A stretch of DNA of 58,437 nucleotides from assembly GCA_044376435.1 (NCBI GenBank), contig JBILKX010000002.1:1-58437 (forward strand). The letters run 5' to 3'. Source of the DNA: Alphaproteobacteria bacterium (GTDB lineage Bacteria > Pseudomonadota > Alphaproteobacteria > JBILKX01). Below the pieces are notes generated by a model that saw nothing but the letters and a program-made list of their open reading frames with translations, had not been told where the DNA came from and ran no database searches. Numbering within the stretch: position 1 is the first letter of the stretch; each line of letters begins with the position of its first letter. This document shows, piece by piece, positions 14,232 to 41,228 of the stretch. Made by a program: the position numbers and the translations under genes.

Positions 14232-14321
14232 ACTGCATCCTTTTAATAGCAAAATTTCCGGTGATTATACCTGTTACCTCTTGGTTTTTCAACCAAAAAC
14301 TCGCTTAAGGCGTGAGAGAAC

Positions 14322-15497: not shown

Positions 15498-15584
15498 GGT
15501 ACCTTCCTTATCCTTATAATAAAACCTTATGATGATACTATAGACATTATCGCCGCCTCGTCAAGAGCGCTGTTATGAGAGAAC

Positions 15585-16766: not shown

Positions 16767-16951
16767 GGTACCTTCCTTATCCTAATAATAAAACCTGATG
16801 ATGATACTATAGGTATTATCGCCGCCCCGTCAAGAGCGCTGCAGTCCCCCACCCCATTTCATCTTGGTATCGATCGCCACAACTAATCCTTGCAACCTTT
16901 AGGGTTTTCGCATAGGTTAAGGAGATATAAAAACTAAAGATTTTTTGGAAA

Positions 16952-27953: not shown

Positions 27954-28613
27954 ATGATGACCCAACTCTTTATACTACTTTTAGCCCTATCTCTCCCCAC
28001 TAGAGTAATCCATAGCCAAGAAGACTTAAGCGCTATACGTTCTCAACAGGCTTGTTTACCGGAAGGTGATCTAAAGCACATCTCTTATGTACAGCAACTC
28101 ATTCACACGATGTCTCAGCTTGATCAACAAGCCCGCAGTGCTTGGAGTGCGCATAAACGCAGCGAGAACCAAGACCAGCTGCTCGCAGACATAGATCGCT
28201 TCCATACCGATAAAATGAAGCAAATCCTTGCGATCCATGGTTGGGTTAAGATCTCAAAGTTTGGCGCGCCTACTGATCATGAAGCCTGGCTTTTAGTTCA
28301 GCATGCGGATCATGATCCCTGCTTTCAAGCCGGATGTTTAATCATCCTGTCTCACCTGGTGCCTCAAGGTGAAACCGATGCCAAGAATTTTGCTTATCTT
28401 TATGATCGTGTTGCTGGGCACTTTTCAACTCTTGGTATGAAACAGCGTTACGGGACGCAAGTGCGTTTCTCGCCTCAAGGTGAAGCTTCTCTCCAACCTT
28501 ATGAAGGCACATTGATGGAGGTTAATCAACGTCGCGCACAACTTGGCTTAGAGACCGTTGAACATTATCTTGCGACTATCTCTAATATCTACCAACATGA
28601 TATTATTTCTTAG
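27954..28613 (+). CDS. Hypothetical secreted protein
   Basis: Signal-like MMTQLFILLLALSLPTRVIHS, then a soluble domain (EAWLLVQHADHD ... YLYDRV ... QRYGTQ). The start is taken at the internal ATG; the track ORF begins at 27900, inside hisS. Confidence 0.6.
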   Translation: MMTQLFILLLALSLPTRVIHSQEDLSAIRSQQACLPEGDLKHISYVQQLIHTMSQLDQQARSAWSAHKRSENQDQLLADIDRFHTDKMKQILAIHGWVKISKFGAPTDHEAWLLVQHADHDPCFQAGCLIILSHLVPQGETDAKNFAYLYDRVAGHFSTLGMKQRYGTQVRFSPQGEASLQPYEGTLMEVNQRRAQLGLETVEHYLATISNIYQHDIIS

Positions 28614-28788
28614 AGTATTACAGTGTCGCCTTCTGATACGTCGCCGTGTTGAGTTCTGTGATGAACTACGCGTTGAAATTTGTTCAAAACCGTAGTATGG
28701 TAACAACAGTTTTTGAGAATGAAATTTTACAAATAACTTAAAAAAATCAGAACTTACAACCTACCAAAAAACAAGAAAGAATAATGGT

Positions 28789-30054
28789 ATGGGAAGTCAT
28801 AAAAAAAGTATTGCGATTATTGGATCAGGGGCTGCTGGGTTAGCCGCGGCTTACCATTTATATAAAACGTGTTCGATCACGGTCTTTGAAGCCAACCAGT
28901 ATATTGGCGGCCACGCCAATACAGTTTCCGTCCCTACCCCTGATGGATCAATCGACGTTGACACCGGGTTTATTGTTTTTAACCATCGCAATTACCCGAC
29001 CCTTGTCGAGGCTTTTTCTGCCTTAGAAATCCCCACTGTTGCCACCCCTATGTCCTTTTCTGTCAGCTGTGATCAAGGAGCGTTTGAATTTTCGAGCGTT
29101 ATTCCCTTTGGTATTTTTGCTCAGCTGCGCAATCTTGTCAGCGTTAAACACTGGACCTTCATCCGTGAAATTTTGCGCTTTAATACTCAGGCTAAAGAGT
29201 GGCTGGATACGCATACCACCTCATCGGCAACCTTGGAAGCATTATTGGATGATCTTCACATGTCCCAAACCTTCCGCACGCGGTATCTTCTGCCGATGGC
29301 TGCCGCAATCTGGTCAGCACCAGTTGAAGAGATTATCAAATTTCCTGCAGTGTCATTTTTACGCTTTTATGATAACCACGGCCTCCTGAGTGTCTCTGAA
29401 CAACCGCAATGGCATACCGTGCACGGTGGCAGCAAGCAATATATAAAAAAGATCACTGACCTTTTCCAATCCCGCATTCGCCTCGATATTAAAATTACCA
29501 ATATCCAGCCTGCACCCACTTTAGGCGAGAAAGTTCTCATATGGGATGAGCATGGTCAATCCTATAGCTTTGATGCGGTCATTATTGCCACTCACGCGGA
29601 CCAAGCCCTGAAGATGTTACAGGCGCCAACCCCCGCACATCAAGACATTCTAGGTGCCTTCCGCTATCAGCGTAACCATACAGTCCTCCATCAAGATCCT
29701 CTTCTGATGCCTAAACGCCGCCGCGCTTGGGCAAGCTGGAATTATATCTCAAATGGAGAGCACCGCTTCGTCACCTATTGGATGAATCATCTCCAACATT
29801 TACCGCCGCAGTTTCCTTTGTTTGTCACCTTGAATTATCCGCATCCGATTACCAAACCGCTTGCGAGTTTTATCTATGAGCATCCTTTATTTGATTCTGC
29901 CGCTTTACAGGCCCAAAGTCGTTTACCTAAATTACAAGGGCTGGGAGGCTTATGGTTTTGTGGCAGTTACACCGGCTATGGATTTCATGAGGATGCTTTT
30001 AAGTCTGGCAAAGCCGCTGCCGCCAATATTCTGAAAAGGCTCGTCAATGCATAA
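28789..30054 (+). CDS. FAD/NAD(P)-binding amine-oxidase-like oxidoreductase
   Basis: N-terminal dinucleotide fold IAIIGSGAAGLAAAYHL. It is the first gene of the widely conserved flavoprotein-DUF1365-CFA synthase trio. Confidence 0.8.
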   Translation: MGSHKKSIAIIGSGAAGLAAAYHLYKTCSITVFEANQYIGGHANTVSVPTPDGSIDVDTGFIVFNHRNYPTLVEAFSALEIPTVATPMSFSVSCDQGAFEFSSVIPFGIFAQLRNLVSVKHWTFIREILRFNTQAKEWLDTHTTSSATLEALLDDLHMSQTFRTRYLLPMAAAIWSAPVEEIIKFPAVSFLRFYDNHGLLSVSEQPQWHTVHGGSKQYIKKITDLFQSRIRLDIKITNIQPAPTLGEKVLIWDEHGQSYSFDAVIIATHADQALKMLQAPTPAHQDILGAFRYQRNHTVLHQDPLLMPKRRRAWASWNYISNGEHRFVTYWMNHLQHLPPQFPLFVTLNYPHPITKPLASFIYEHPLFDSAALQAQSRLPKLQGLGGLWFCGSYTGYGFHEDAFKSGKAAAANILKRLVNA

Positions 30055-30838
30055 AGCCGGGATTATGCAAGTGTTCCACGGACGCACGACCCCGGCGGTC
30101 AATCAGTTCACCTACGGTGTTCCTTGTTTATTACTCAACGTTGCGACGCTCGAGCCCGAGAGTATTGGCGTGGTTGGTCTAGACACCACCCGTCCCATCA
30201 GTTTTCGCACCTCTGATCATGTGACCAGCGAGCACAGTTTATGGACATGGATCAATAACATCACTCAGCGCCATGCCGGATGGTCAGCAGCCTCTGTTGA
30301 GCTTTTAACCATCCCAAGATATTGGGGGTATGCCTTCAAGCCCGTAAGCTTTTGGTTATGTTGGCGCGACTCTGATCATCTCGGCGGTGTCTTGGCAGAG
30401 GTAAACAATACCTTTGGCGAGCGCCACCTCTACTGGGTGCAACATCCTGATGGCCGCCCAATTAAGGCTGAAGAATGGCTTTGTGCTGAAAAAATTTTTC
30501 ATGTTTCACCCTTCTTTGAAACAAAGGGTGAGTACCGTTTTCGCTTTAAACTTAGTGAAAACTTTATTGACATTCGTGTCGATTATTGGGTGGATGGTGT
30601 ACGCATGCTGAAGACTGGCCTTGCTGGTCAAGTGCGTCTCTTGACACCCGCTTTCGGATGGCGTGCGTTATGCACGTATCCCCTCGCAACTTTTAAAATT
30701 ATAACCACTATCCATTATCAAGCAGGTAAGTTATGGCTCAAAAACGTTCCATGGTTTCGCAAACCCACTCCACCCAGCACATCACTCTCTCTGAGCTCGT
30801 CGCTCCCTCCCTCTCTTGGGCAGCACGACAATTCCTAA
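30047..30838 (+). CDS. DUF1365-family protein
   Basis: N-terminus VFHGRTTPAVNQFTYGVPCLLLNV fits the DUF1365 H.R..P....F.Y pattern. Its position between the flavoprotein and the cfa-like gene supports the call. 8-nt overlap with the upstream gene. Confidence 0.7.
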   Translation: MHKAGIMQVFHGRTTPAVNQFTYGVPCLLLNVATLEPESIGVVGLDTTRPISFRTSDHVTSEHSLWTWINNITQRHAGWSAASVELLTIPRYWGYAFKPVSFWLCWRDSDHLGGVLAEVNNTFGERHLYWVQHPDGRPIKAEEWLCAEKIFHVSPFFETKGEYRFRFKLSENFIDIRVDYWVDGVRMLKTGLAGQVRLLTPAFGWRALCTYPLATFKIITTIHYQAGKLWLKNVPWFRKPTPPSTSLSLSSSLPPSLGQHDNS

Positions 30839-31977
30839 ATGCCCTTGATCATTGCCGCTGTGGTGAGCTCATCCTCCAGCTTCCCACAGGAAATTCCCTA
30901 AGTTTTGCCGGAGCTCATGCAGGACCCAAAGTGGTTTGGACCGTCCATGATTGGGGTGCCCTTGAGATGATTGCTAAAACTTCTGATATTGGATTTTTTG
31001 AGGGCTATCATGCCGGCCTGTGGGATGCCGACGACATCCCGGGGCTCTTGGTATTCTTTCTAATCAATGAAACAGCCATGACGGATTACCTATTTTCAAA
31101 AGGCATTATAAGAGTTGTCAACTGGCTCCGCCATTTATTCCGTCCCAATACGCGCCGAGGTAGCCGTCGCAATATTATTGCCCACTATGACCTTGGCAAC
31201 GATTTTTATCAGCACTGGCTTGATGGCTCTATGACCTACTCTGCAGGTCTGTATACCCAGCCCGACATGACCCTTGAATCGGCACAAAATGCTAAATATC
31301 AGGCAATACTTGATGATCTTAACTTACCTACGGGGAGCCACATCTTAGAAATTGGGTGCGGTTGGGGAGGTTTTGCAATTTATGCCGCCCATCAAGGGTA
31401 TCATATCACTGCCATCACCATTTCACCTGCGCAGCATGCGTTTGCTCAGGAAAGAATCGAAGCACAAAAACTTGAAGACCGCATTACGTTACAAAGTTGT
31501 GACTATCGCGAATTAGAGGGACAGTATGATGGCATTGTGTCAATTGAGATGTTTGAAGCTGTCGGCAAAGCGTACTGGGGGAAATTCTTTCAGACTGTAA
31601 AGCGGTGTCTGAAACCTAATCGAAGCGCGATTATCCAGACCATCACCATTGCTGAAGAGAATTTCCAAAGCTACATCCGTAACGTTGATTTTATTCAACT
31701 CTATATTTTTCCAGGTGGTCTCCTCCCCAGTCCTGAGAGGTTTTGCCGGGCAGCCCTTAACGAAGGCCTTAAAGTCGAGAACCGGCGATCTTTTGGTCCC
31801 AGCTACACCCAGACCTTGGAACAATGGCGTGCCAGGTTTCAGCTGAGCTGGCCTAAAATCATGAAACTGGGTTTTGACGAGTCGTTCTATAGGTTGTGGG
31901 ATTATTACCTGAGCTATTGTATCGCTGGCTTCCGGACAGAGCGTATTGATGTTGTGCATTTTCAGTTAACGCGATAA
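30733..31977 (+). CDS. cfa: Cyclopropane-fatty-acyl-phospholipid synthase family SAM methyltransferase
   Basis: HYDLGNDFY and the SAM motif LEIGCGWGG. The annotated start overlaps DUF1365 by 106 nt, so the start is uncertain. Confidence 0.88.
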   Translation: MAQKRSMVSQTHSTQHITLSELVAPSLSWAARQFLNALDHCRCGELILQLPTGNSLSFAGAHAGPKVVWTVHDWGALEMIAKTSDIGFFEGYHAGLWDADDIPGLLVFFLINETAMTDYLFSKGIIRVVNWLRHLFRPNTRRGSRRNIIAHYDLGNDFYQHWLDGSMTYSAGLYTQPDMTLESAQNAKYQAILDDLNLPTGSHILEIGCGWGGFAIYAAHQGYHITAITISPAQHAFAQERIEAQKLEDRITLQSCDYRELEGQYDGIVSIEMFEAVGKAYWGKFFQTVKRCLKPNRSAIIQTITIAEENFQSYIRNVDFIQLYIFPGGLLPSPERFCRAALNEGLKVENRRSFGPSYTQTLEQWRARFQLSWPKIMKLGFDESFYRLWDYYLSYCIAGFRTERIDVVHFQLTR

Positions 31978-32025
31978 CCGATGACCAGAGAAAGCTCAGT
32001 GTTGGGTGATGATTAAATTTTCTTA

Positions 32026-32053
32026 TTGACAATTCTCTGTTGATTCCTATACC
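32026..32053 (+). promoter_or_regulatory. Candidate promoter of duplicated gene X1
   Basis: TTGACA (32026-32031), 16-nt spacer, TATACC (32048-32053). The same arrangement is conserved at 33168-33195. Confidence 0.35.
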
Positions 32054-32079
32054 ATATCAATGCTTCGTTAGGTTATTTA

Positions 32080-32868
32080 ATGAAAAAAAGTTTTTTCAAT
32101 TCACTCAAGGACAATTCCTTCATGCGTCAGATTTCCGTCATCGTCTTATGCGCTAGTTTATCTCTGAATCCCTTAGCCGGCTTGGCTTGGGCAGCTGATA
32201 TAATGGCGCCCACTGTAGACTCCCAAGGCACCTTAGCGGCGCCACAAAAGCTGGTAAAGGCCCCTGTTGTACCCCCACACCAAGACCCTGTAAAAAAGTC
32301 TCAGGCTACACAAACACGGTGGTTCTGGCCACTGGTCGCTGGTATCGGTACTGTCGTCGCTGTGGTCGGCGGGCTTGCTGTATGGTTTTTCTCACAAAAG
32401 TCAACCCCTAGCACAAGTCCATTGAGTGACAATCCAGGGTTAGATAACTCAAAGCTCTTGGATAAAATGCGCGCGCGTTTATCTGAACTCAACGCAAAAT
32501 ATCAGACTATGGATAGTGATTTAAAGATAATTCAACAAGTGGCTATTAACCCAGTGCAAAATCTAGAGACTCTTACCACAATAAAAGGGGGCGGGTTGAC
32601 TCTGAAGGACTATGAATTCCTAGGTGAAATCTTCGCATCACAAACTCACGAGGAGCTAAAAGCACAACTCTTGAACCTGCAACCGTATGCTATTCAATAC
32701 ATCCAGTCAACAGTAGCGCTTTTACCCTCAATAAAGGCAACATTGACTTCATTTGTTGAGCGCGCCGACACCACATCTGATCCCATATCTTGGGGAATGC
32801 TTATAAAAGAGGCTTTGGAAAAGAAGAAAAGCACACCTGCGCCGTCAGAATCTTTAATTACATCGTGA
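32080..32868 (+). CDS. Hypothetical signal-peptide/TM protein X1 (short paralog)
   Basis: 262 aa. About the first 117 residues are nearly identical to X2, including signal-like MRQISVIVLCASLSLNPLAGLAWA and the TM segment WFWPLVAGIGTVVAVVGGLAVWFF. An alternative start at ATG 32122 has AAGGA 10 nt upstream. Confidence 0.7.
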   Translation: MKKSFFNSLKDNSFMRQISVIVLCASLSLNPLAGLAWAADIMAPTVDSQGTLAAPQKLVKAPVVPPHQDPVKKSQATQTRWFWPLVAGIGTVVAVVGGLAVWFFSQKSTPSTSPLSDNPGLDNSKLLDKMRARLSELNAKYQTMDSDLKIIQQVAINPVQNLETLTTIKGGGLTLKDYEFLGEIFASQTHEELKAQLLNLQPYAIQYIQSTVALLPSIKATLTSFVERADTTSDPISWGMLIKEALEKKKSTPAPSESLITS

Positions 32869-32937
32869 AAAGGTAGAATTTTTCTGACTTACACCGCTTA
32901 GTGTGACAAAACGCACTAAAGGTATAGCTTAAACGAC

Positions 32938-33037
32938 CATAGTGCACAGCCGCTTTGAGAAACAAGATCGGCGCCGACCAAAACCAGGGCAGCTCATGGT
33001 TTAAGACCCAATGATAATGTTGGTCTATGCAACTGGT
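32938..33037 (-). pseudogene. Fragment of the GT2 glycosyltransferase gene 3' region (copy of 35781-35903)
   Basis: CCATAGTGCAC.GCCGC.TTGAGAAACAA.ATCGGCGCCGACCAAAACCAG.GCAGCTCATGGTTTAAGACCCAATGATAAT...GGTCTATGCA.CTGG matches the intact gene, with a deletion of about 24 bp. Confidence 0.8.
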
Positions 33038-33057
33038 GGGGTATCATTACTCATCCA

Positions 33058-33116
33058 GCGCTGGCTTGGATAGCTCTATCCCCTATATTGATGTTGTGCA
33101 TTTTCAGTTAACGCGA
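33058..33116 (+). pseudogene. Fragment of the cfa 3' end (copy of about 31923-31974)
   Basis: CGCTGGCTT ... TATTGATGTTGTGCATTTTCAGTTAACGCGA reproduces the last codons of cfa without its stop. The duplicated intergenic region follows. Confidence 0.8.
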
Positions 33117-33167
33117 CAGCCGGCGACCAAAGGCAACGCAGCATTGCGTGATGATTGCGTTTTCTTA

Positions 33168-33195
33168 TTGACAATTCTCCGTTGATTCCTATAGC
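33168..33195 (+). promoter_or_regulatory. Candidate promoter of duplicated gene X2
   Basis: TTGACA (33168-33173), 16-nt spacer, TATAGC (33190-33195). Paralogous to 32026-32053. Confidence 0.35.
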
Positions 33196-33220
33196 ATTTA
33201 GTGTTTCGTTACGTTATTTA

Positions 33221-35551
33221 ATGAACGAAAATTTTTTCAATTCACTCAAGGACAATTCCTTCATGCGTCAGATTTCCGCCATCGTCTTATGCGCTAGTTT
33301 ATCTCTGAATCCCTTAGCCGGCTTGGCTTGGGCAGCTGATATAATGGCGCCCACTGTAGACGCCCAAGGCACCTTAGCGGCGCCACAGAAGCTGGCAAAG
33401 ACCCAGGTTGTACCCCCACACCAAGACCCTGCAAAAAACTCTCAGGCTACACAAACACGGTGGTTCTGGCCACTGGTCGCTGGTATCGGTACTGTCGTCG
33501 CTGTGGTCGGCGGGCTTGCTGTATGGTTTTTCTCACAAAAGTCAACCCCTAGCACAAATCCATTGAGTGAAAAGTCAGACTTCGACCCCATTCCATTGGG
33601 TGAAAAGCCAGAATTCGACCCCATTCCATTGGGTGAAGAGCCAGGTTCTAGTGTTTCACACGCTTTCGACAACGGCACCCGCAATCCACAACCATACCCA
33701 CTAAATCCAAACCAGGATGACGTTCCCACCAAAGAGACCTTAGGCGACAATCGTGACCAACGGTTCACGCTTCATGATGACATACTGACAGAGCAGGCCC
33801 CATTTCCTGAACTTAAAAACCACAGCACTCAAGCGACCGGAACGCCAACAACACCAACGCCAGAGACGGTAGTAACAGAACAGTCACTCACACCTGTACC
33901 GGCAAAGACGGAGGAAAAGATCTCCATAAACGAAGAGACAAAGCCGCAAGGATCAAAGTTGCTTAGCTTAAAGGACCTTCACATTGTGAGTCACCAATTG
34001 AGAAACGCATCTATCCTAGAAGAGCTTTATTTGAAAAAGGAACATCTAGTAGAAACAGAAAATCCTAACGCTATTAAAGAGGAACTCAAAACCCACACGC
34101 ATCAGAACGGCCAGGAGTTTATCAATCATGACAGAACATTATTTCACTATCTTGCGCTCGCGAACGAGGTACATAAATATTCCAAGGTATTTGAGAAAGC
34201 CACACTAAAACTAAACCAGGACAAACTCTATCAGGGTCTAATCAAGTCGGCAGCTTATCTGAGAGATAACGTGCACACGGGGTTAGGTGGCAATCCTGAA
34301 CATAAAGACATGTTATCCAAGATTCACGATCACTTGGTGGAGGAGGAGAAGCAATGTCTTCAAGATCCAAAACACAGTATTAAATATCCCATAGAGCCCT
34401 CGACACCAGGGCCAGAGATGGCAGTAAAGACGCCAATAGTACCACCACAGCCGACCAAGATAGAGGCACTCGAGTTAACTCAAAATGAAGAGACAAAGCT
34501 ACAAGCATCAAAACTGCTTAGCTTACCGGACCTTATCCCTCTTAGTCAGAAATTGGAAACATTATCTTGGGAAAGAAAGCTTTGTTTGAAAAAAGATTCT
34601 GACGCTGTTCTTGATCAACGAACAGCGCCCATGAAAGATAATCCGGAAGCCAAGAAATTTAAGAGGTACGAATTGAACTTATTTCTATATCTTGCAAAGG
34701 CGAGCGATGCAGATCGTCATTCCAAGTTTTTTGAGACCGGAAAACAAGCACTACATGAGCAGGGAATGTACCCGGAGCTCATCACGGCCGCAGCTTATCT
34801 GAGAGATAACGTTAACACCAACACTGAATTAGGTGGCGATCCTGAACATAAAGACATGTTATCCAAGATTCACGATCACTTGGTGGAGGAGAAGAAGCAA
34901 TTTCTTCAAGATCCAAAACACAGTATTAAATATCCCATAGAGCCCTCGACACCAGGGCCAGAGATGGCAGTAAAGACGCCAATAGTACCACCACAGCCGA
35001 CCAAGATAGAGGCACTCGAGTTAACTCAAAAGGAAGAGACAAAGCCGCAAGCCGAAAAACTACTTAGCTTAAATGAACTTATTAATGTTACTAAGGCATT
35101 GAAAGAGTTATCTAATAAACCTTTATCTTCTGTAGAAAAGCTTTATTTGAAAAAGGACGTTCTTCAAGCGTCGCCCGACGATTCTCAGGCTATTCGCACT
35201 GAATTACTCAATCACATTTATAATACTGATGAAGGCAAAATTTTTACTTCTCATAAGTTGATATTATATAAATATCTTGTAAGGGCGAGCGTTGTAGGTG
35301 ATGATCCCGAGTTTTTTGAGACCAGAAAACGAGAACTATATAAGAAGCCAGGCTACGAAGCTCTAATCAACGCCGCAGCTCATCTGAGAGATAACATTCA
35401 CACAGGGGTAGGAGGTAGCGATCCTAAATATAAAGACATGTTATCCAAGATTCACGATCACTTGGTGGAGGAGGAGAAGATACTTCTCAATTCTAAAGAG
35501 CTCACGACACCGGCGCCAGAGCTAAAGACAGAAGTACCCGTAAAGACATAG
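33221..35551 (+). CDS. Hypothetical signal-peptide/TM protein X2 (long paralog with three repeats of about 185 aa)
   Basis: The start is taken at ATG 33221 by analogy with X1; the track uses TTG 33155, and 33263 is an alternative. It shares its N-terminal module with X1, then has a Pro/Thr-rich linker and three large repeats, each ending in AAYLRDN...PEHKDMLSKIHDHLVEE. Confidence 0.72.
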   Translation: MNENFFNSLKDNSFMRQISAIVLCASLSLNPLAGLAWAADIMAPTVDAQGTLAAPQKLAKTQVVPPHQDPAKNSQATQTRWFWPLVAGIGTVVAVVGGLAVWFFSQKSTPSTNPLSEKSDFDPIPLGEKPEFDPIPLGEEPGSSVSHAFDNGTRNPQPYPLNPNQDDVPTKETLGDNRDQRFTLHDDILTEQAPFPELKNHSTQATGTPTTPTPETVVTEQSLTPVPAKTEEKISINEETKPQGSKLLSLKDLHIVSHQLRNASILEELYLKKEHLVETENPNAIKEELKTHTHQNGQEFINHDRTLFHYLALANEVHKYSKVFEKATLKLNQDKLYQGLIKSAAYLRDNVHTGLGGNPEHKDMLSKIHDHLVEEEKQCLQDPKHSIKYPIEPSTPGPEMAVKTPIVPPQPTKIEALELTQNEETKLQASKLLSLPDLIPLSQKLETLSWERKLCLKKDSDAVLDQRTAPMKDNPEAKKFKRYELNLFLYLAKASDADRHSKFFETGKQALHEQGMYPELITAAAYLRDNVNTNTELGGDPEHKDMLSKIHDHLVEEKKQFLQDPKHSIKYPIEPSTPGPEMAVKTPIVPPQPTKIEALELTQKEETKPQAEKLLSLNELINVTKALKELSNKPLSSVEKLYLKKDVLQASPDDSQAIRTELLNHIYNTDEGKIFTSHKLILYKYLVRASVVGDDPEFFETRKRELYKKPGYEALINAAAHLRDNIHTGVGGSDPKYKDMLSKIHDHLVEEEKILLNSKELTTPAPELKTEVPVKT
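33902..35548 (+). repeat. Three tandem coding repeats (about 546-549 bp each) inside X2
   Basis: Repeat landmarks NEETKPQGSKLLSL, NEETKLQASKLLSL and KEETKPQAEKLLSL sit at residues 259, 444 and 626 of the track ORF. Blocks 34295-34498 and 34841-35044 are nearly identical. Confidence 0.85.
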
Positions 35552-35650
35552 GCAGAGACAGAAACATCGACACAGTCAACCCCGCGTGCAAGTCCATTGA
35601 GTGACAGTCCACCCTTTCCCCCTAAGATAAAATGATGGAGGCTGGGTTGT

Positions 35651-36553
35651 CTAGCGTTTACCCTTGAGGACGACACCTAGATTGAGTACAAATCCAATCG
35701 CCCATAGTGTTTTGGCGAGACTTGTCGTCAAGGCGGCCCATTGATGGCGCATGGGGATTCCCAGGCAACGGCTCAAGCGCCCATAGTGCACGGCCGCCTT
35801 GAGAAACAATATCGGCGCCGACCAAAACCAGTGCAGCTCATGGTTTAAGACCCAATGATAATACAGCTGCCGACCGGCCGCATGGGTTGGTCTATGCAGC
35901 TGGCGCGATAAATTATTAGGCTGTTCGTCCACGTAGTAAATACGTAAAATCGTATTACAGCAATACAACTGATACTGTTGGGCAATGCGTTGCCATAGGT
36001 AACTCTCGGGGATAAATTTACATGGCCGCAGATCTGGAAATAAAAATTGTTTCAGAATATCCGTCCGGTGAAATCCCCATTTTTCACCAGCGACCTGGTA
36101 GCGATAGGCTAATTCCGATGAAGTCGCCCTGAGACCATCTTGCGGGAAAGGATCCCCGCAGAGCTTCCCGTATTGATCTTCACATAACACACAGACGCCA
36201 CTAAATGTAGGACGTTGCGCCACGGGGATTTCTTCCCAGCGTGCCGTAAACTCTGCAAGAGCTGTTGGCACGCACGCATCGTCGGCATCTAAAGGCACCA
36301 AGAACTCGCCCTCAGCAGCCTGAATGCCCGTATTCAGAGCCCAGTATTTGCCTTGATTTTCCTGGGATATATAGCGAATCGGTATGATCGCTGCTTCTTG
36401 CCACGCGCGCACTAAGGTGGCTGTCTCATCTGTCGAGCCATCATCAACAATCAGCCATTCAAAATCTTTTTCGGTTTGATTCTGTAAACTATGATATACC
36501 CGTGGCAGTGTATGAGCGGCATTATAGGTTGGTGTTAAGATCGTAAACTGCAT
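35651..36553 (-). CDS. Family 2 glycosyltransferase
   Basis: FTILTPTYNAAHTL ... FEWLIVDDGSTDET and the DADD motif. ATG 36553 (MQFTILTP) is preferred over the track start at 36592. Confidence 0.85.
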   Translation of the reverse strand: MQFTILTPTYNAAHTLPRVYHSLQNQTEKDFEWLIVDDGSTDETATLVRAWQEAAIIPIRYISQENQGKYWALNTGIQAAEGEFLVPLDADDACVPTALAEFTARWEEIPVAQRPTFSGVCVLCEDQYGKLCGDPFPQDGLRATSSELAYRYQVAGEKWGFHRTDILKQFLFPDLRPCKFIPESYLWQRIAQQYQLYCCNTILRIYYVDEQPNNLSRQLHRPTHAAGRQLYYHWVLNHELHWFWSAPILFLKAAVHYGRLSRCLGIPMRHQWAALTTSLAKTLWAIGFVLNLGVVLKGKR

Positions 36554-37383
36554 ACATAATTCCTGAGATACTGCATCACAACTTGGGGGCAATATTTATA
36601 AGCGTGCCATAAATATCTGAGCATGGTGCCCCACTGCCGCAGACGACGCGCTTCACCAGCGCCTTGCAACCAGAGCTGGCCTAATCCTCGCCGTCCAGAA
36701 GCGCCTAGGTTTCCTAAAGTTTGCGCGTGCCTTTTACTAAATATCGGGACAGCTGCAAGTGTTGAGCGGCTCGCCGCTCCCCTATTCGTATAGATGCGGG
36801 CGCAAATTTCTGGCACCGTTGCACACTTACCTCCAGCCACAGCATACCGCAGCAGCCAATCCCAATCCTCAAAGCGTTGTAAGGTTGTATCCATCAGCCC
36901 AATGTCGTTGATCACCTCTCGTTTTATCATCAAGGTTGAGCCTGGGCTTAAGTCACACCCCTGACTAATAGCATCAAGAAAACGAGCGATCATCGGAACA
37001 TGTGTGTTCACCTTACCATCAACATGCCACTCAAACGCCGTCACACTGATCCCGCTAGAATTCTGCTGCATCACCTCAAGCTGCCGAGAGAGCTTATCGG
37101 GCAGCCACTCATCGTCAGAGTCGAGAAAGGCAATAAACGGCGATGTGCCCTGCCTCATACCAGTGTTACGGGCGGCTGCCGCCCCTTGGTTCATCTCATG
37201 CCGACAATAGCGAATCCGCGGATCCTGATACTCAGCAACGACAGCCTCGGTAGCATCCTGGGAGGCATCATCAATGATCCATAATCGCCACTCTTGATAG
37301 GTTTGTGCCCGGACACTCTCGATCGCCCGACGGATTAAATGCGCCCGATTGTAGGTTGGGATAATAATATCTACCTGTGACAC
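36535..37383 (-). CDS. Family 2 glycosyltransferase
   Basis: VDIIIPTYNRAHLI ... WIIDDASQDAT ... FLDSDDEW. Confidence 0.85.
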   Translation of the reverse strand: MSQVDIIIPTYNRAHLIRRAIESVRAQTYQEWRLWIIDDASQDATEAVVAEYQDPRIRYCRHEMNQGAAAARNTGMRQGTSPFIAFLDSDDEWLPDKLSRQLEVMQQNSSGISVTAFEWHVDGKVNTHVPMIARFLDAISQGCDLSPGSTLMIKREVINDIGLMDTTLQRFEDWDWLLRYAVAGGKCATVPEICARIYTNRGAASRSTLAAVPIFSKRHAQTLGNLGASGRRGLGQLWLQGAGEARRLRQWGTMLRYLWHAYKYCPQVVMQYLRNYVCSLRS

Positions 37384-38270
37384 TTAGACACCCACCTACA
37401 CACCAACTGCCATGGAAACCGCCACCACCATCCTGCATCCCACAATAATCCTTCTAACATAAAACGCCATGCCTCTCGGAAAGCTCTCGCCCGAAAACAC
37501 TGGGATGCTTGGTACCCGGCTTCCCAACTGTGCCAGGCTCGACAAGCGTGCTTTAAGAGACGCCGCGTATCCGGCGCGATCATGAATTGACGCGCAATCG
37601 CCATGTATTCAGGGAGTTTACGGGCTTTATAACTCGCCTGTGGATTAAAGGTTAACGACCCCTCATGCTGGTAATATCGGTAAACAAGTGGATCCAGTGC
37701 CTCAGTGCGCATACCCCTATTCCAAGCGCGCAACAAAAATTCTCGATCTGCCGCGATCCGATACTGAGGTTTATATACGCCAGCACGCTCATAAACCCGC
37801 CGATGAAAAAACCGGGCATTTGTTATCGGCACCCCAATCGTTGCATCCCATAATCGCAGTACCTTGATGGCGGAGTCATTGATCACGCCCTGTGTGTGTC
37901 CATGGGCATCGGTCATCTCTACCCCGCCACACACGGAATCAACGAGCGGATTTTCGGCAAATTTCTCAATCACCGCTGCGAACACATTGGGCATATACGC
38001 ATCATCACTATTCAGATGCCCGATGACTGTGCCCTGCGCTCGCGCAATGCCTTTGTTGATGGCATCGTATAAACCGTCATCAGGTTCTGAGATCACCACC
38101 AGGTGAGGATACCGCCGCAAGACGTCTAACGTCCCATCGGTTGAGCCCCCATCAACGATAATATGCTCGACGTGGGGATAATCTTGCTGCAACACGCTCT
38201 CGATGGCAGTGGCAATAAACGCTGCACGATTCAAGCAGGGGGTAATAATTGTCAGCAACGGCTTAGACAT
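37371..38270 (-). CDS. Family 2 glycosyltransferase
   Basis: LTIITPCLNRAAFI ... HIIVDGGSTDGT ... HLNSDDAY. Confidence 0.85.
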   Translation of the reverse strand: MSKPLLTIITPCLNRAAFIATAIESVLQQDYPHVEHIIVDGGSTDGTLDVLRRYPHLVVISEPDDGLYDAINKGIARAQGTVIGHLNSDDAYMPNVFAAVIEKFAENPLVDSVCGGVEMTDAHGHTQGVINDSAIKVLRLWDATIGVPITNARFFHRRVYERAGVYKPQYRIAADREFLLRAWNRGMRTEALDPLVYRYYQHEGSLTFNPQASYKARKLPEYMAIARQFMIAPDTRRLLKHACRAWHSWEAGYQASQCFRARAFREAWRFMLEGLLWDAGWWWRFPWQLVCRWVSKCHR

Positions 38271-39300
38271 TCATAAAATACTCAAGGTACCACTCAACGG
38301 TTGACTGGAGGGCTGACGCAAATTCATGCTGTGGTGCGTATCCAAGCTGCTGGTTCGCTTTGTCGCAGTTGATTGCATAGCGCTGGTCATGACCTTTACG
38401 GTCATTAACGAAGCTGATCAGGTCGCGACTACGGCCACCCTTGAAGCAACGGGCGTTGACGTAGTGATGAGCGTATTGAGGTGTGCTCTTTAAAACCTGG
38501 TCAACAGTATCGCACAGCGTCTCTATAAGCTCAAGGTTCGTCCAAGCGACTCCCCCGCCTATATTGTAAACCTCTCCCATCTTACCCTGGGTCAAAATAA
38601 GCTCTAACCCGTAACAATGGTCGCGCACGTATAACCAATCACGGATATTTTGGCCGGTGCCATAAATCGGGATAGACTCCCCAGACACCATTCGATGGAT
38701 GGCTAAAGGCATCAGCTTTTCCTCATACTGATACGCTCCAAAATTATTTGAGCAATGACTGATGGTCACCGGGATCTTGTAGGTTTGCCCATAAGCCCGC
38801 ACAAGATGATCACTGCCGGCTTTGCTCGCCGCATAAGGCGAATTGGGAGCATAGCGATCTAATTCCGTGGTTGGGGCTGCCGCCGGCTCGAGGCTTCCAT
38901 ACACCTCATCTGTCGATACATGATGAAAGCGATACCGCGCAGGATCCGCTGCCTCTCCCCAAAATTGGAGGGCTGCCTTTAGCAACGTGTGTGTCCCGAG
39001 AATATTTGTGGTGACAAAAATATCTGGACCTTCTATCGACCGATCAACATGCGATTCAGCTGCAAAATGTACAACACGCTCAACGGCTTTATCTTGAAAT
39101 ATTTCCGTTACCAGTGTCTCGTCGCGTATGTCCCCTTTGATGAAATCGATCTTCCCAAGGACACCGCCCAGATTCTCACGTCGGCCCGCATAGGTTAATG
39201 CATCAAGAACCACCAACTGATCCTCGGGATATTTATCCAACCAATAATGCACAAAATTTGCGCCAATAAATCCAGCCCCGCCAGTGATTAATATTGTCAT
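38263..39300 (-). CDS. rfbB: dTDP-glucose 4,6-dehydratase
   Basis: ILITGGAGFIGANF, STDEVYG and YAASKAGSD (YxxxK). Typical RmlB length of 345 aa. Confidence 0.9.
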   Translation of the reverse strand: MTILITGGAGFIGANFVHYWLDKYPEDQLVVLDALTYAGRRENLGGVLGKIDFIKGDIRDETLVTEIFQDKAVERVVHFAAESHVDRSIEGPDIFVTTNILGTHTLLKAALQFWGEAADPARYRFHHVSTDEVYGSLEPAAAPTTELDRYAPNSPYAASKAGSDHLVRAYGQTYKIPVTISHCSNNFGAYQYEEKLMPLAIHRMVSGESIPIYGTGQNIRDWLYVRDHCYGLELILTQGKMGEVYNIGGGVAWTNLELIETLCDTVDQVLKSTPQYAHHYVNARCFKGGRSRDLISFVNDRKGHDQRYAINCDKANQQLGYAPQHEFASALQSTVEWYLEYFMNV

Positions 39301-39302
39301 TG

Positions 39303-41228
39303 TTATTCTTCCTTATGCTTTTCCACCCATACCTGAAACATGAGAACAGCCCATAAAATTGCACTCCAGTTACGCTGCCCATGTTGATGCTGTTGCCATA
39401 ACTGATCATAGACTATTTTTTCATTAAATATACCTTGATATTTTAGACGTGACGGCGACAAATAATCTTCTGCCCATGACCGCAAAGGCCCGCGCAACCA
39501 ATGGGCTAATGGCACACCAAATCCCATTTTAGGTCTATTAATTAAGGTAGATGGCAGATGGGAGGCGAGGATTTGGCGTAAAGCCCACTTGCTCTTCCCA
39601 TCCCGATACTTGTAAGCAAGTGGCAATCGCCAAGCCATCGTTGCCAAGCGATGATCCAGGAGCGGCACTCTCACCTCTAATCCAACGGCCATTGAAGCGC
39701 GGTCCACTTTTGTCAGGACATCATCTGGCATATAACTCATAATATCCCATGCCTGGAACTGATCCATCAGCACACCAGTTGTGGAGGCAGGCCAGTCTAT
39801 TGGCGACGGCTGGGCTGTGAGGATCGAAGAACCATCCGTCGGCAACGCGACGAGACTTTGATAGACTGCCTCGGCACTTGCAGCTGGCAGTAAAGCGGCA
39901 AATTTGTGGATCTTATCACCTAACTGAGGCATCATCGCTGGCAGCCAACGATCATAGTGCTCTGGAGATAAGAGCTTCAGACCGCACGCCAAGGCTTGCC
40001 GACCAAGCCTTGGGATCCACGCCATGCGACGCCAAAGCTTTGCTGCTAATTGATAGCGATTATATCCAGCAAAAAACTCGTCACCTCCGTCCCCTGACAA
40101 TGCCACTGTCACATGCTCTTTGGCGAGCTTTGCAACGAGGTACGTCGGGATTTGCGAGGAGTCAGCAAATGGCTCGTCGTAGACATGAGCAATCATCTGT
40201 GCGGTTTCAAGCGCCTGCGCATCAGTGATGTACAGCTCAGTATGGTTCGTCTGTAAATGGTGGGCAATAGCGCGGGCATAGGGTGCTTCGTCAAAGCTTG
40301 GATCTTCAAACCCAATTGAGAAAGTACGGACTTGTTGGGCGCTGTGCTTTTGCATCAACGCCACGACCAAGCTACTATCAATGCCACCGGATAAAAACGC
40401 TCCTACTGGCACATCTGCCATGAGCTGGCGTTTTACCGCATCATTGAGAAGCGTCTCTAGCGACTGGAGAATGAGTGGCTCCGGCCGTGTTTCAAGGTCG
40501 CGCGCGCGGATACCGTCCGTGATCATGGTTTCTGTATGCCAGTAACGCTGCACCTGGGCCTCTGATGTGTCTGACGTCAGAACGACATACCCTCCCGGGG
40601 GTAACTTATACAGACCATCATAAATGCTCGAGGCACCAAGGATATATCCCCGCTGAGCATATGAACGTAAGGCCTCAGCGGAGAAAGATAGCGGCTGGCT
40701 TGCGAACATACGCACACTTTTAAGCTCTGATGCAAAAACCCAGCGCTGCCCGATGAATCCATAGTATAAAGGCTTGACTCCAAAGCGATCGCGAACAAGG
40801 GTTAGGGTGTTTTTATGGGTGTCCCATATCCCCATGGCGAACATGCCAATCAGCTTTGTCACTGTCTCGTTAATACCCCAGTGACTTATGGCTTCAAGAA
40901 TGACTTCTGTATCAGAGTGACCGCGAAATTGCGCACCAAGTCCTTTGAGTTGTTCTGCAAGTTCGGGGGCATTAAACACTTCGCCATTATAGACCATAAC
41001 GTAGCGCCCATTATGACTGATCATAGGTTGATCGCCCGTGGGAGAGAGATCCACGATCGCCAAGCGTCGATGTGCGAGGGCAATGCCAGTGCTCGCATCA
41101 ACCCATACCCCATCGCCGTCTGGGCCACGATGCGCTATCGCATCAGACATCGAGCGCACTTGCGTTTCAAGATCTGTGCGTGTTATCCCAGTCCGTGATG
41201 TTGTTAAGAAGCCTGCAATTCCGCACAT
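39303..41228 (-). CDS. asnB: Asparagine synthase (glutamine-hydrolysing) family amidotransferase
   Basis: MCGIAGF N-terminal Cys nucleophile and the PP-loop SGGIDSS. 641 aa. Its location in a polysaccharide operon suggests a sugar-amidating role of the WbpS type. Confidence 0.85.
   Translation of the reverse strand: MCGIAGFLTTSRTGITRTDLETQVRSMSDAIAHRGPDGDGVWVDASTGIALAHRRLAIVDLSPTGDQPMISHNGRYVMVYNGEVFNAPELAEQLKGLGAQFRGHSDTEVILEAISHWGINETVTKLIGMFAMGIWDTHKNTLTLVRDRFGVKPLYYGFIGQRWVFASELKSVRMFASQPLSFSAEALRSYAQRGYILGASSIYDGLYKLPPGGYVVLTSDTSEAQVQRYWHTETMITDGIRARDLETRPEPLILQSLETLLNDAVKRQLMADVPVGAFLSGGIDSSLVVALMQKHSAQQVRTFSIGFEDPSFDEAPYARAIAHHLQTNHTELYITDAQALETAQMIAHVYDEPFADSSQIPTYLVAKLAKEHVTVALSGDGGDEFFAGYNRYQLAAKLWRRMAWIPRLGRQALACGLKLLSPEHYDRWLPAMMPQLGDKIHKFAALLPAASAEAVYQSLVALPTDGSSILTAQPSPIDWPASTTGVLMDQFQAWDIMSYMPDDVLTKVDRASMAVGLEVRVPLLDHRLATMAWRLPLAYKYRDGKSKWALRQILASHLPSTLINRPKMGFGVPLAHWLRGPLRSWAEDYLSPSRLKYQGIFNEKIVYDQLWQQHQHGQRNWSAILWAVLMFQVWVEKHKEE

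What the first reader, a model, noticed from the sequence alone, without database searches (positions are those of the whole stretch)
31923..35903. Tandem segmental duplication caught by its junction: a GT 3' fragment abutting a cfa 3' fragment
The last about 50 nt of cfa, the downstream spacer with a candidate promoter, and the first about 350 nt of the next gene (31944-32430) are repeated at 33086-33570, at about 93 % identity by eye. Immediately left of that second copy sits a fragment of about 100 bp (32938-33037). It matches the 3' coding region of the minus-strand glycosyltransferase at 35781-35903, apart from a deletion of about 24 bp. The order is cfa - X1 - [GT fragment][cfa fragment] - X2 - GT. 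That is exactly what one tandem duplication of a unit running from inside cfa to inside the GT gene would give, with the junction at about 33038-33057. The two resulting genes keep a common signal-peptide/TM N-terminal module but now have unrelated C-terminal domains (145 aa in X1, about 660 aa in X2).
Basis: seen in the sequence. Interest (0 to 1): 0.65.

Follow-up and report, generated by a model that had tools for sequence, protein, structure and literature searches.

The report
Old tandem duplication, orphan membrane genes
In an uncultured lake alphaproteobacterium, a stretch running from the end of a lipid-modifying gene to the end of a sugar-transferase gene was copied head-to-tail long ago. 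It left two dead gene stubs at the joint and two sister genes with the same membrane-anchor front half but unrelated back halves; the event is real but of an ordinary kind.

Summary
31944-32444 repeats at 33086-33585 (91.8 %, E 3e-173). 32927-33043 repeats GT codons 215-261 at 35771-35910 (92 % and 84 %, with a 23-nt gap). The GT stub and the cfa stub lie within 14 nt of each other (33044-33057). cfa and GT are both intact.

The arrangement is not an assembly artefact. An independent ENA assembly is 100 % identical over 14 kb. Logan contigs from two runs span the joint. Copy-specific paths sit at about 10x and the shared 118-nt core at about 20x.

A single join-point tandem duplication is the best explanation, but it is old and no longer collinear. 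The interiors (490 versus 2185 nt) are unrelated, and copy 1 lacks GT's ancestral last 39 codons. At least one later replacement or deletion is therefore needed.

X1 and X2 belong to a lineage-specific family with no Pfam, NCBIfam or PDB match. The family has a Sec signal peptide, a short segment, a glycine-rich TM helix and variable helical C-terminal domains. Paralogs are dispersed, apparently in the same genome. X2 carries three copies of a 180-aa six-helix unit with no known fold match. No relative retaining a single copy was found.

This is an ordinary mechanism acting on an uncharacterised gene family. Interest is low to moderate.

The parts
30733..31977 (+). cfa (cyclopropane-fatty-acyl-phospholipid synthase family), intact. 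It is the last gene of an amine-oxidase - DUF1365 - CMAS trio.
   Evidence: Pfam PF02353 E 6.4e-82, profile positions 6-273 of 273. JGI calls the gene from 30931.
31925..32444 (+). Repeat copy 1 (parental). It holds the last about 53 nt of cfa, the spacer, a promoter-like site, the 5' UTR and the X1 N-module up to the linker.
   Evidence: Self-blastn 91.8 % to 33086-33585.
32026..32055 (+). Promoter-like site TTGACA-18-TACCAT upstream of X1.
   Evidence: Consensus scan, 10 of 12 matches. It is 28/30 conserved in copy 2, while the adjacent spacer is only 35/48 conserved. Function is not shown.
32122..32868 (+). X1, 248 aa from M15 (the ORF opens at 32080). It has a Sec-type signal peptide (..LAWA|AD), a segment of about 42 aa, a glycine-rich TM helix, the linker STPSTSPLSD and an X1-type helical C-domain of about 143 aa.
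   Evidence: No Pfam or NCBIfam match. Paralogs P0138, P0140 and P0141 share the N-module and a W-G-x-I-x-x-A-A C-terminal motif. The AF2 model has pLDDT 41 and is all-helical.
32445..32926 (+). Copy-1-specific interior: the X1 C-domain coding region plus 58 nt downstream. It has no counterpart in copy 2.
   Evidence: blastn finds only itself in the window. hhalign against the X2 domain gives probability 0.1 %.
32927..33043 (-). Dead GT stub. It matches GT codons 215-261, with a frame-breaking 23-nt deletion, and lacks GT's last 39 codons.
   Evidence: 92.4 % and 84 % to 35771-35862 and 35886-35910.
33044..33057 (.). Join point of the duplication. These 14 nt are assignable to neither parent, or are decayed GT sequence reaching a possible 2-nt CG microhomology at 33057/33058.
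   Evidence: Global alignments. Logan contigs 32387-33115 (run X1) and 32524-33115 (run X2) span it with 0 differences.
33058..33119 (+). Dead cfa stub, matching the last about 53 nt of cfa. It carries two insertions and the stop codon is lost (TAA to CAG).
   Evidence: Alignment: 46/51 identical plus indels.
33058..33585 (+). Repeat copy 2: cfa stub, spacer, promoter-like site, 5' UTR and the X2 N-module up to the linker.
33168..33197 (+). Promoter-like site TTGACA-18-TAGCAT upstream of X2.
33263..35551 (+). X2, 762 aa from M15 (the ORF opens at 33155). It has the same N-module, then PL(S/G)E 11-aa repeats and a P/T-rich spacer, then three units of about 180 aa, and ends at TAG.
   Evidence: No family match. 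Exhaustive phmmer finds only 7 proteins.
33914..35548 (+). Three tandem X2 domain units: 33914-34447, 34448-34993 and 34994-35548. Each is a predicted six-helix bundle with the motif AAYLRDNVH..PEHKDMLSKIHDHLVEE. The inter-unit segments 34275-34567 and 34821-35113 are 90 % identical.
   Evidence: The AF2 model has pLDDT 80 and pTM 0.73. The best Foldseek PDB hit has E 0.49 and TM below 0.41.
35574..35611 (+). Third copy of the 38-nt linker motif. It lies after the X2 stop and in frame with it (..VKT*AETETSTQSTPRASPLSDSPPFPPKIK*).
   Evidence: 87 % to 32399-32436, E 5.5e-6. The frame was read from the sequence.
35651..36553 (-). GT, a family-2 glycosyltransferase, intact (300 aa). It is the first of three GT2 genes on the minus strand. 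The parental segment of the stub is 35771-35910.
   Evidence: Pfam PF00535 E 3e-29. It aligns end to end with homologs of 48-53 % identity, including the C-terminal tail.

Best explanation
SHOWN. The genome of an uncultured lake alphaproteobacterium really carries cfa - X1 - [GT stub | cfa stub] - X2 - GT.

INFERRED, origin. One unequal, essentially homology-free exchange joined a point about 53 nt before the cfa stop (about 31925) to a point in GT codon about 207-215 (about 35910-35933). This duplicated head-to-tail a unit holding the cfa tail, the spacer with its promoter, the whole X gene, the X-GT spacer and the GT tail. Both flanking genes stayed intact. The only scars are the two truncated stubs that meet at 33044-33057.

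INFERRED, later history.
(1) The event is old. The stubs have decayed, with 8-16 % mismatches, a 23-nt deletion and small insertions.
(2) The interior of at least one copy was then replaced or deleted. Copy 1 lost the GT tail and now carries the family-typical X1-type domain. Copy 2 carries an unrelated 180-aa helical-bundle domain that was itself triplicated in tandem. Which C-domain is ancestral cannot be decided.
(3) The 5' module was kept alike. The signal peptide and TM helix differ at 1 of 144 nt, and synonymous divergence is about 2 %. The causes are probably purifying selection plus gene conversion between the copies.

PRODUCTS (inferred, low confidence). X1 and X2 are Sec-exported, single-pass envelope proteins. 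The shared N-module acts as an address-and-anchor label, and the variable helical C-domain is the working part. Each copy has its own promoter-like site, so both are probably expressed.
For: Repeats and joint:
- Searches give E 3e-173 and 2e-27. The repeats are direct and collinear with their parents, and the stubs lie 14 nt or less apart.
- The parent genes are intact.

The arrangement is not an artefact:
- ENA MEGAHIT contig L082 is 100 % identical over window 28000-42000.
- A further JGI contig of 57,720 nt shows the same gene order, as does the 9,138-nt contig L081.
- Logan contigs 32387-33115 (run X1, 11.8x) and 32524-33115 (run X2) cross the joint without a difference.
- In run X1 the copy-1-specific path 32191-32328 has 10.3x and the copy-2-specific path 33332-33469 has 9.3x. 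The shared 118-nt core has 19.8x and the flanks about 10.5x.

Age and decay:
- Segment identities are 90 % (cfa stub), 73 % (spacer), 93 % (promoter-like site), 98.6 % (signal peptide) and 100 % (TM helix).
- Strains from different samples are 99.7-100 % identical to one another.

A later event is needed:
- The interiors are unrelated.
- The GT tail missing from copy 1 is conserved in homologs.

Homogenisation:
- pS is 0.02, against 0.095 in the stubs and 0.27 in the spacer. Fisher p is 0.11 against the stubs alone and 0.013 when the spacer is included.
- Contigs from runs X3 and X5 carry copy-1 bases at 9 of 9 and 1 of 9 differing sites within copy 2.

Family context:
- Paralogs P0138, P0140 and P0141 share the N-module at 39-47 % identity and have X1-type C-domains.
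- They come from the same samples, on contigs with matching GC and tetranucleotide use (r 0.89-0.90, against 0.92 between the two halves of the window).
Against: - No genome or contig retaining a single copy was found, so the ancestral state and the direction of change are not observed.
- One duplication alone does not reproduce the locus. The interiors differ, and 120 nt of GT that should lie inside the unit is absent from copy 1.
- The statistical support for gene conversion is weak. The run X3 and X5 mosaics come from low-depth (3.5-4.5x) de Bruijn contigs. The copies share identical runs of 47, 82 and 118 nt, all longer than k = 31, so path chimeras are possible.
- No long reads or RNA runs were available, so full-length linkage rests on short-read assemblies and expression is untested.
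- The topology of the proteins is uncertain. The segment before the TM helix carries more K/R than the segment after it, which fits a simple type I anchor poorly.
Confidence: 0.75

Rival explanations
1. Merodiploid by integration of a diverged allele. A fragment of the same locus from a related strain, running cfa tail - X(other allele) - GT part, circularised or was bridged during recombination. It integrated by one homologous crossover in the cfa/N-module region. This gives the same stub-to-stub joint. The two copies would have been about 8 % diverged and would have carried different C-domains from the start.
For: - The topology is identical to that of a tandem duplication.
- The model explains in one step why the interiors are unrelated and why the flanks are about 8-10 % diverged while the population is otherwise nearly clonal.
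- Transformation-generated merodiploids are documented in bacteria (PMC3784515, seen; abstract only).
Against: - No donor-like lineage or second allele of cfa or GT appears in any sample searched. The closest GT is 53 % identical and the closest cfa 48 %.
- The GT stub still lacks the gene's tail, so an extra deletion is needed here too.
- The N-module is much more alike (98.6-100 % in the signal peptide and TM helix) than the stubs. This needs later homogenisation in either model.
Confidence: 0.12
2. There was no single duplication. X1 and X2 are ancient neighbouring paralogs of the dispersed family. The shared 5' region and the two stubs arose by separate ectopic recombination or gene-conversion events.
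For: - X1-type and X2-type C-domains each have distant relatives elsewhere (P0138, P0140 and P0141 for X1-type; P0139 for X2-type), so both domain types are older than the 92 %-identical repeat.
- Possible ongoing conversion between the copies.
Against: - Conversion tracts need homology on both sides. None exists left of 33058 or right of 33043.
- Two independent events would have had to place a GT fragment and a cfa fragment within 14 nt of each other, in the right order and orientation.
- Other paralog loci (L166, L171) show no such stubs.
Confidence: 0.08
3. Assembly artefact: a chimeric or mis-joined metagenome contig that merges two strains or two loci.
For: The region is repetitive, and Logan contigs break at every repeat boundary. 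One contig (L081) differs by two clean deletions.
Against: - Three to four independent assemblies from different samples and different assemblers give the same order.
- Contigs from two runs cross the joint with 0 differences.
- Copy-specific paths each sit at flank depth and the shared core at twice that depth.
Confidence: 0.02

Closest known systems
Join-point tandem duplication in bacterial chromosomes, by unequal exchange at little or no homology. This is the general mechanism described in the gene duplication and amplification literature (own knowledge: Reams & Roth 2015; Andersson & Hughes 2009). Related papers are listed.
   Same: Direct head-to-tail repeats. One novel joint fuses the distal breakpoint (inside GT) to the proximal breakpoint (inside cfa). 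The flanking genes are intact and only the joint carries truncated gene pieces. The copies remain substrates for recombination.
   Different: Laboratory duplications are recent, identical and unstable. This one is fixed, 8-27 % diverged in neutral parts and no longer collinear inside. The breakpoint microhomology can no longer be read with confidence (at most 2 nt, CG).
Staphylococcus aureus lpl tandem paralog cluster (Tsuru & Kobayashi 2008, PMC2568036; abstract read).
   Same: Tandem paralogs in which a conserved stretch inside the ORFs coexists with variable parts. The conserved evolutionary unit runs from the 3' end of one ORF through the intergenic region into the 5' end of the next. Recombination at the conserved stretch shuffles the variable parts. 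The products are exported envelope proteins of unknown function.
   Different: There are only two copies here. The upstream 3' piece is a dead stub of an unrelated gene (cfa), not of a paralog. There is no lipobox cysteine (the site is LAWA|AD), so the products are not lipoproteins. Shuffling between strains is not demonstrated.
Constant N-terminus with exchangeable C-terminus genes that leave displaced tails, as in CdiA/Rhs-type polymorphic toxins (own knowledge).
   Same: A constant N-terminal part is followed by a short conserved boundary motif (the 38-nt STPSxSPLSD linker) and then unrelated C-terminal domains. A further copy of the boundary motif plus a short tail lies just after the X2 stop, in frame. 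It resembles a displaced original tail.
   Different: There is no toxin, immunity, Rhs/YD, VENN or PT-motif signal in Pfam, NCBIfam or PDB. No small downstream immunity-like ORF is present. The proteins are short, and the motif is also part of an 11-aa PL(S/G)(D/E) repeat. The resemblance is formal only.

Membership tests
Join-point tandem segmental duplication | Two copies of a segment in direct orientation, adjacent to each other | tested here: met
   31925-32444 / 33058-33585 and 32927-33043 / 35771-35910, all on the same strand and in the same order.
Join-point tandem segmental duplication | A single novel joint that fuses the downstream breakpoint to the upstream breakpoint, while both parental genes remain intact | tested here: met
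   The GT stub ends at 33043 and the cfa stub starts at 33058. The joint is unique in the window. cfa and GT are full length.
Join-point tandem segmental duplication | The two units are collinear over their whole length | tested here: not met
   The interiors 32445-32926 and 33586-35770 share nothing (hhalign probability 0.1 %). Copy 1 lacks GT's last 39 codons. A secondary event has to be assumed.
Join-point tandem segmental duplication | The arrangement exists in the DNA of the organism (read or assembly support, and copy-number-consistent depth) | tested here: met
   Independent assemblies, joint-spanning Logan contigs, and 1x / 1x / 2x depth. No long reads were available.
Join-point tandem segmental duplication | A single-copy ancestral state is seen in relatives | not testable with these tools
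   No relative was found in any collection:
- No X1 relative in GTDB representative genomes.
- Best cfa match 48 % and best GT match 53 %.
- The 90 % clusters of RpoB and RpoC hold only this lineage.
- Metagenome-contig scans returned nothing.
lpl-like tandem paralog cluster that diversifies by recombination at a conserved intragenic region | Several tandem paralogs share a conserved intragenic stretch flanked by variable regions | tested here: inconclusive
   There are only two paralogs. They share a conserved 5' module (92 %) and have unrelated 3' parts.
lpl-like tandem paralog cluster that diversifies by recombination at a conserved intragenic region | Lipoprotein signal peptide (lipobox with Cys at +1) | tested here: not met
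   The signal peptide ends ..NPLAGLAWA|ADIM, with no cysteine at or near the cleavage site (sequence).
lpl-like tandem paralog cluster that diversifies by recombination at a conserved intragenic region | Rearrangements between strains that map to the conserved region | tested here: inconclusive
   Copy-1-type bases appear in copy 2 in runs X3 and X5. L081 lacks 129 nt of X1 and one X2 unit. All of this comes from short-read contigs.
Polymorphic toxin (CdiA/Rhs-like) with C-terminal displacement | A recognisable toxin or delivery domain, and a cognate immunity gene downstream | tested here: not met
   No Pfam or NCBIfam match for X1 or X2. No ORF lies between the X2 stop and the GT stop.
CMAS / cyclopropane fatty acid synthase (flanking gene cfa) | Full-length match to PF02353 above the gathering score | tested here: met
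   275 bits against a cut-off of 27, profile positions 6-273 of 273. Enzyme activity was not tested.
Glycosyltransferase family 2 (flanking gene GT) | Match to PF00535 above the gathering score, with the DxD region conserved | tested here: met
   102.6 bits against a cut-off of 23.3. D89, D91 and D92 are invariant in the alignment with homologs.

The most novel reading that the evidence does not exclude
The duplication may be one visible step in the growth of a lineage-specific, modular envelope or host-interaction protein system.

Two kinds of constant 'address' module exist, each made of a Sec signal peptide, a short exposed segment and a glycine-rich TM helix. They are type A (MRQIS...) and type B (MHQTPSLWL...). 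Both are combined with interchangeable helical C-domains. The X2-type six-helix unit, which has no known fold match, occurs behind both module types.

The genes sit in tandem arrays. Their address modules evolve in concert. The domains vary in copy number between strains (3 versus 2 units; a 43-aa in-frame deletion in X1).

Taken together, this would be a domain-shuffling, contingency-like surface or effector family in an uncultured alphaproteobacterium.
Probability: 0.2. Interest if true: 0.55.

Novelty: new member of a known kind. Interest (0 to 1): 0.3.

Why it matters
The locus is a clean natural example of how a bacterial gene family grows. The duplication joint is still readable: two dead gene stubs lie back to back. 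It can be compared directly with what happened afterwards. The neutral parts decayed, the promoter and membrane-anchor module were kept nearly identical, the working domain was swapped wholesale, and one copy expanded internally.

It also flags an uncharacterised protein family, and a confidently predicted helical domain with no known structural relative, in a lake alphaproteobacterium that has no close sequenced relative.

It does not reveal a new mechanism.

Tried and rejected
Searches for a relative with a single copy, all without result:
- X1 against GTDB representative genomes found no relative.
- cfa and GT neighbours reach at most 48 % and 53 % identity, too distant for synteny comparison.
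- The N-module profile and an exact 37-nt N-module pattern found nothing in metagenome contigs.

Function by homology, all negative:
- Pfam, NCBIfam and PDB sequence profiles gave no match.
- The AF2 model of X1 is too poor to search with (pLDDT 41).
- The X2-unit model is good, but Foldseek against PDB gave nothing better than E 0.49.

Tests of homology between the two copies' interiors:
- A remote relation between X1-type and X2-type C-domains is rejected (hhalign probability 0.1 %).
- Homology of the 58 nt after X1, or of the X1 3' end, to the X2-GT spacer or the GT tail was not found.

Sequencing data:
- No RNA runs could be listed, so expression is untested.
- No Nanopore or PacBio runs could be listed.
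- No deletion joints were seen in eight runs.

Other points considered:
- The organism could not be named. 
- The neighbouring ParA-like gene (41204-42274) was considered as a polysaccharide tyrosine kinase. It is an ApbC/Mrp Fe-S carrier.
- The dN/dS contrast in the N-module is not significant (pN/pS about 1.7-2.6, Fisher p = 1).
Full report
OBSERVATION

The region was read directly and compared with itself. Two pairs of direct repeats exist.
- 31944-32444 matches 33086-33585 at 91.8 % over 501 columns with one gap (E 3e-173).
- 32927-33018 matches 35771-35862 at 92.4 % (E 2e-27). After a 23-nt gap in the left copy, 33019-33043 matches 35886-35910 at 84 %.

A global alignment carries the first repeat left to about 33058 (CGCTGGCTT) with two small insertions. 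The GT-derived piece and the cfa-derived piece are therefore separated by at most 14 nt (33044-33057). That joint sequence occurs nowhere else in the window.

Pfam confirms the flanking genes. 30733-31977 is a full-length CMAS-family methyltransferase (PF02353, E 6e-82). It sits behind an amine oxidase and a DUF1365 gene. 35651-36553 on the minus strand is a family-2 glycosyltransferase (PF00535, E 3e-29), the first of three. Both are intact. The GT aligns end to end with homologs of 48-53 % identity.

IS IT REAL DNA?

The same order of genes appears in four assemblies from different samples:
- the window itself;
- a JGI contig of 57,720 nt;
- an ENA MEGAHIT contig of 59,614 nt, which is 100 % identical to window 28000-42000 (L082);
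- a JGI contig of 9,138 nt (L081).

Logan contigs of public lake-water runs break at every repeat boundary, as expected. One contig of run X1 (32387-33115) and one of run X2 (32524-33115) nevertheless run from X1-specific sequence through the GT stub and the joint into the cfa stub without a single difference.

Depth in run X1 fits two copies per genome. The copy-1-specific path 32191-32328 has 10.3x. The copy-2-specific path 33332-33469 has 9.3x. The 118-nt stretch identical in both copies has 19.8x. The flanks have about 10.5x.

An assembly artefact is therefore very unlikely. No long-read or RNA runs could be listed.

WHAT KIND OF EVENT

Two truncated gene pieces abut each other. Each is collinear with an intact parent a few kb away, on the same strand, in the order distal-breakpoint then proximal-breakpoint. 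This is the signature of a single join-point tandem duplication. Separate conversion or insertion events would have had to place the two pieces within 14 nt of each other by chance, with no flanking homology to guide them.

The breakpoints are about 31925 (53 nt before the cfa stop) and about 35910-35933 (GT codons about 207-215). At most 2 nt of microhomology (CG) can still be read.

The locus is not what one duplication alone would give. The interiors of the two units, 32445-32926 (490 nt) and 33586-35770 (2185 nt), share nothing at DNA level. They share nothing at profile level either (hhalign probability 0.1 %).

The GT stub covers only codons 215-261. The last 39 codons of GT must have been inside the duplicated unit, and they are conserved in GT homologs. 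They are missing from copy 1. At least one later replacement or deletion is needed, and its direction cannot be decided without an outgroup.

A variant model gives the same topology: a diverged allele from another strain integrates by one crossover, forming a merodiploid. It would explain the different interiors in one step. No donor-like lineage is visible, however, and it needs the same extra deletion.

AGE AND LATER EVOLUTION

Segment by segment, the identity between the copies is as follows:
- cfa stub: 90 %, plus indels
- spacer upstream of the promoter-like site: 73 %
- TTGACA-18-TA(C/G)CAT site: 93 %
- 5' UTR: 89 %
- signal peptide: 98.6 %
- segment between signal peptide and TM helix: 93.7 %
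- TM helix: 100 %
- linker: 87 %

By contrast, contigs from different samples differ from one another by 0-0.3 %. The duplication is therefore old and fixed, not recent.

Synonymous divergence in the shared coding part is about 2 %. It is 9.5 % in the dead stubs and 27 % in the spacer. Fisher p is 0.11 against the stubs alone and 0.013 when the spacer is included. This suggests the 5' module was homogenised after the duplication.

In line with this, a contig of run X3 carries copy-2 upstream sequence followed by the copy-1 base at all nine sites that distinguish the copies between 33279 and 33439. A contig of run X5 carries the copy-1 base at one of these sites. These are low-depth de Bruijn contigs, and the copies share identical runs longer than k = 31. 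Path chimeras cannot be excluded, so gene conversion is suggested rather than shown.

Eight of the nine differences in the module are non-synonymous and cluster in the segment between the signal peptide and the TM helix. The dN/dS contrast is not significant.

THE TWO GENES

X1 and X2 have no Pfam, NCBIfam or PDB-sequence match. A word-indexed search of 5.8 billion proteins found only their own strain variants.

An exhaustive phmmer search of 1.84 billion representatives with X2 found seven proteins.
- P0137, P0138, P0140 and P0141 share the N-module from MRQI... at 39-55 % identity.
- P0138, P0140 and P0141 also have X1-type C-domains ending in a W-G-x-I-x-x-A-A motif.
- P0139 carries one X2-type unit at 36 % identity.

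P0138 to P0141 come from the same samples as the window. P0137 is known only from a 516-nt contig of an NCBI assembly. The larger contigs holding P0138 and P0141 (L166, L171) match the window in GC (46.7-48.2 % against 47.7 %). They also match in tetranucleotide use (r 0.89-0.90, against 0.92 between the two halves of the window). These paralogs are thus most likely dispersed in the same genome. This is an inference.

All paralogs start at MRQ, and an AGGA-like motif lies about 11 nt upstream in each. The real start codons are therefore probably 32122 and 33263, giving 248 and 762 aa. The ENA gene calls agree.

The N-module reads as follows. A Sec signal peptide (..NPLAGLAWA|AD, no lipobox) is followed by about 42 residues, then a glycine-rich TM helix (WFWPLVAGIGTVVAVVGGLAVWFF), then the linker STPSTSPLSD. 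A simple reading is a type I anchor with the C-domain in the cytoplasm. However, the K/R-rich stretch lies before the helix rather than after it, so the topology is open.

X2 carries three tandem units of about 180 aa (33914-35548). AlphaFold2 on the four-sequence alignment gives a confident six-helix bundle (pLDDT 80, pTM 0.73). It has no Foldseek match in the PDB better than E 0.49. The X1 model is poor (pLDDT 41).

The 38-nt linker motif occurs a third time just after the X2 stop codon, in frame (35574-35611; ..VKT*AETETSTQSTPRASPLSDSPPFPPKIK*). It could be the displaced tail of a shorter ancestral gene, or part of a domain border cut off by a recent nonsense mutation. The data do not decide between these.

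VARIATION

Contig L081 is 99.7 % identical to the window in the flanks. It lacks 129 nt of X1 (32393-32521, residues S105-D147, in frame, with 1-nt microhomology). It also lacks exactly one X2 unit (546 nt). The unit loss lies between two 293-nt segments of 90 % identity, so it could be an unequal crossover or an assembly collapse. The X1 deletion has no repeat that would explain a collapse. Neither could be verified in the runs available.

ORGANISM

The 90 % clusters of RpoB and RpoC hold only this lineage. All runs that hold the locus are lake-water or freshwater metagenomes. No genome close enough for synteny comparison was found.

COMPARISON WITH KNOWN SYSTEMS

The mechanism is the ordinary join-point tandem duplication of bacterial genetics. 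The after-history is a conserved 5' unit running from the previous gene's 3' end through the spacer into the next ORF, combined with unrelated variable parts. It most resembles the S. aureus lpl tandem paralog cluster (PMC2568036). Here, though, there are only two copies, there is no lipobox, and there is no demonstrated shuffling between strains. The constant-N / variable-C layout with a possible displaced tail formally recalls polymorphic toxin loci, but no toxin or immunity feature is present.

VERDICT

This is a new example of a known kind of event, involving an uncharacterised, lineage-restricted protein family. Interest is about 0.3.

Noticed in passing
window 14313-16841 (minus-strand ORFs 14322-15497 and 15585-16766): This is a second head-to-tail duplication. 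14313-15572 matches 15576-16841 at 76 % (unit 1263 nt, copies abutting). The two proteins (391 and 393 aa, no Pfam or NCBIfam match) are about 95 % identical in the first 85 or so and last 140 or so residues, but only about 30 % identical in the middle 150 or so. The pattern of conserved ends and a variable middle is the same as at the X1/X2 locus.
   Followed up: partly
L169 1-2032 and L170 1-1752 (JGI samples 3300044637 and 3300044618): These contigs hold a tandem array of at least three genes with a different address module: MHQTPSLWLIIILMG..AYAGRPSAAP.., then a P/S/T/N-rich stretch, then a TM helix. The C-termini are variable. One gene (P0139, true length 320 aa from ATG at L170:44) carries a single X2-type unit. 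The X2 domain therefore occurs behind two unrelated N-modules. Whether these short contigs belong to the same genome is uncertain.
   Followed up: partly
window 35549-35635: The X2 stop codon TAG is followed, in frame, by 27 more codons (AETETSTQSTPRASPLSDSPPFPPKIK) that include a third copy of the linker motif. The next stop lies 15 nt from the GT stop. This could be a recent nonsense mutation or a displaced ancestral tail.
   Followed up: partly
window 32393-32521 and about 34358-34903, compared with L081: One JGI contig of the same strain lacks 129 nt of X1 (43 aa, in frame, no flanking repeat). It also lacks exactly one 546-nt X2 unit. This may be population copy-number variation, or in part assembly collapse.
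   Followed up: partly
window 36713-36753, compared with L085: A JGI contig from sample 3300044618 lacks 41 nt inside the second GT2 gene (36535-37383). The deletion is frame-breaking. The gene is called at 268 aa there instead of 282 aa.
   Followed up: no
window 33540-33640: The juxtamembrane linker of X2 is a short 33-nt / 11-aa tandem repeat: STNPLSEKSDF / DPIPLGEKPEF / DPIPLGEEPGS. The same PL(S/G)(D/E) unit occurs once in X1 and once after the X2 stop.
   Followed up: no
L166 1297-3664: Paralog P0138 (N-module plus X1-type domain with a long coiled-coil-like tail) lies next to a FliI/T3SS-type ATPase gene (PF00006 + PF18269) and a response regulator. The ORF upstream (L166 2-571) encodes a perfect EDKTVVAKTEPEGTP repeat.
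   Followed up: no
window 2320-3165 and 3972-4820; window 5062-6828: Two further ORFs with no Pfam match, 281 and 282 aa and one gene apart, are distant paralogs (26 % identity, E 5e-13). The next ORF encodes a 588-aa protein with a leucine-rich-repeat match (PF12799).
   Followed up: no
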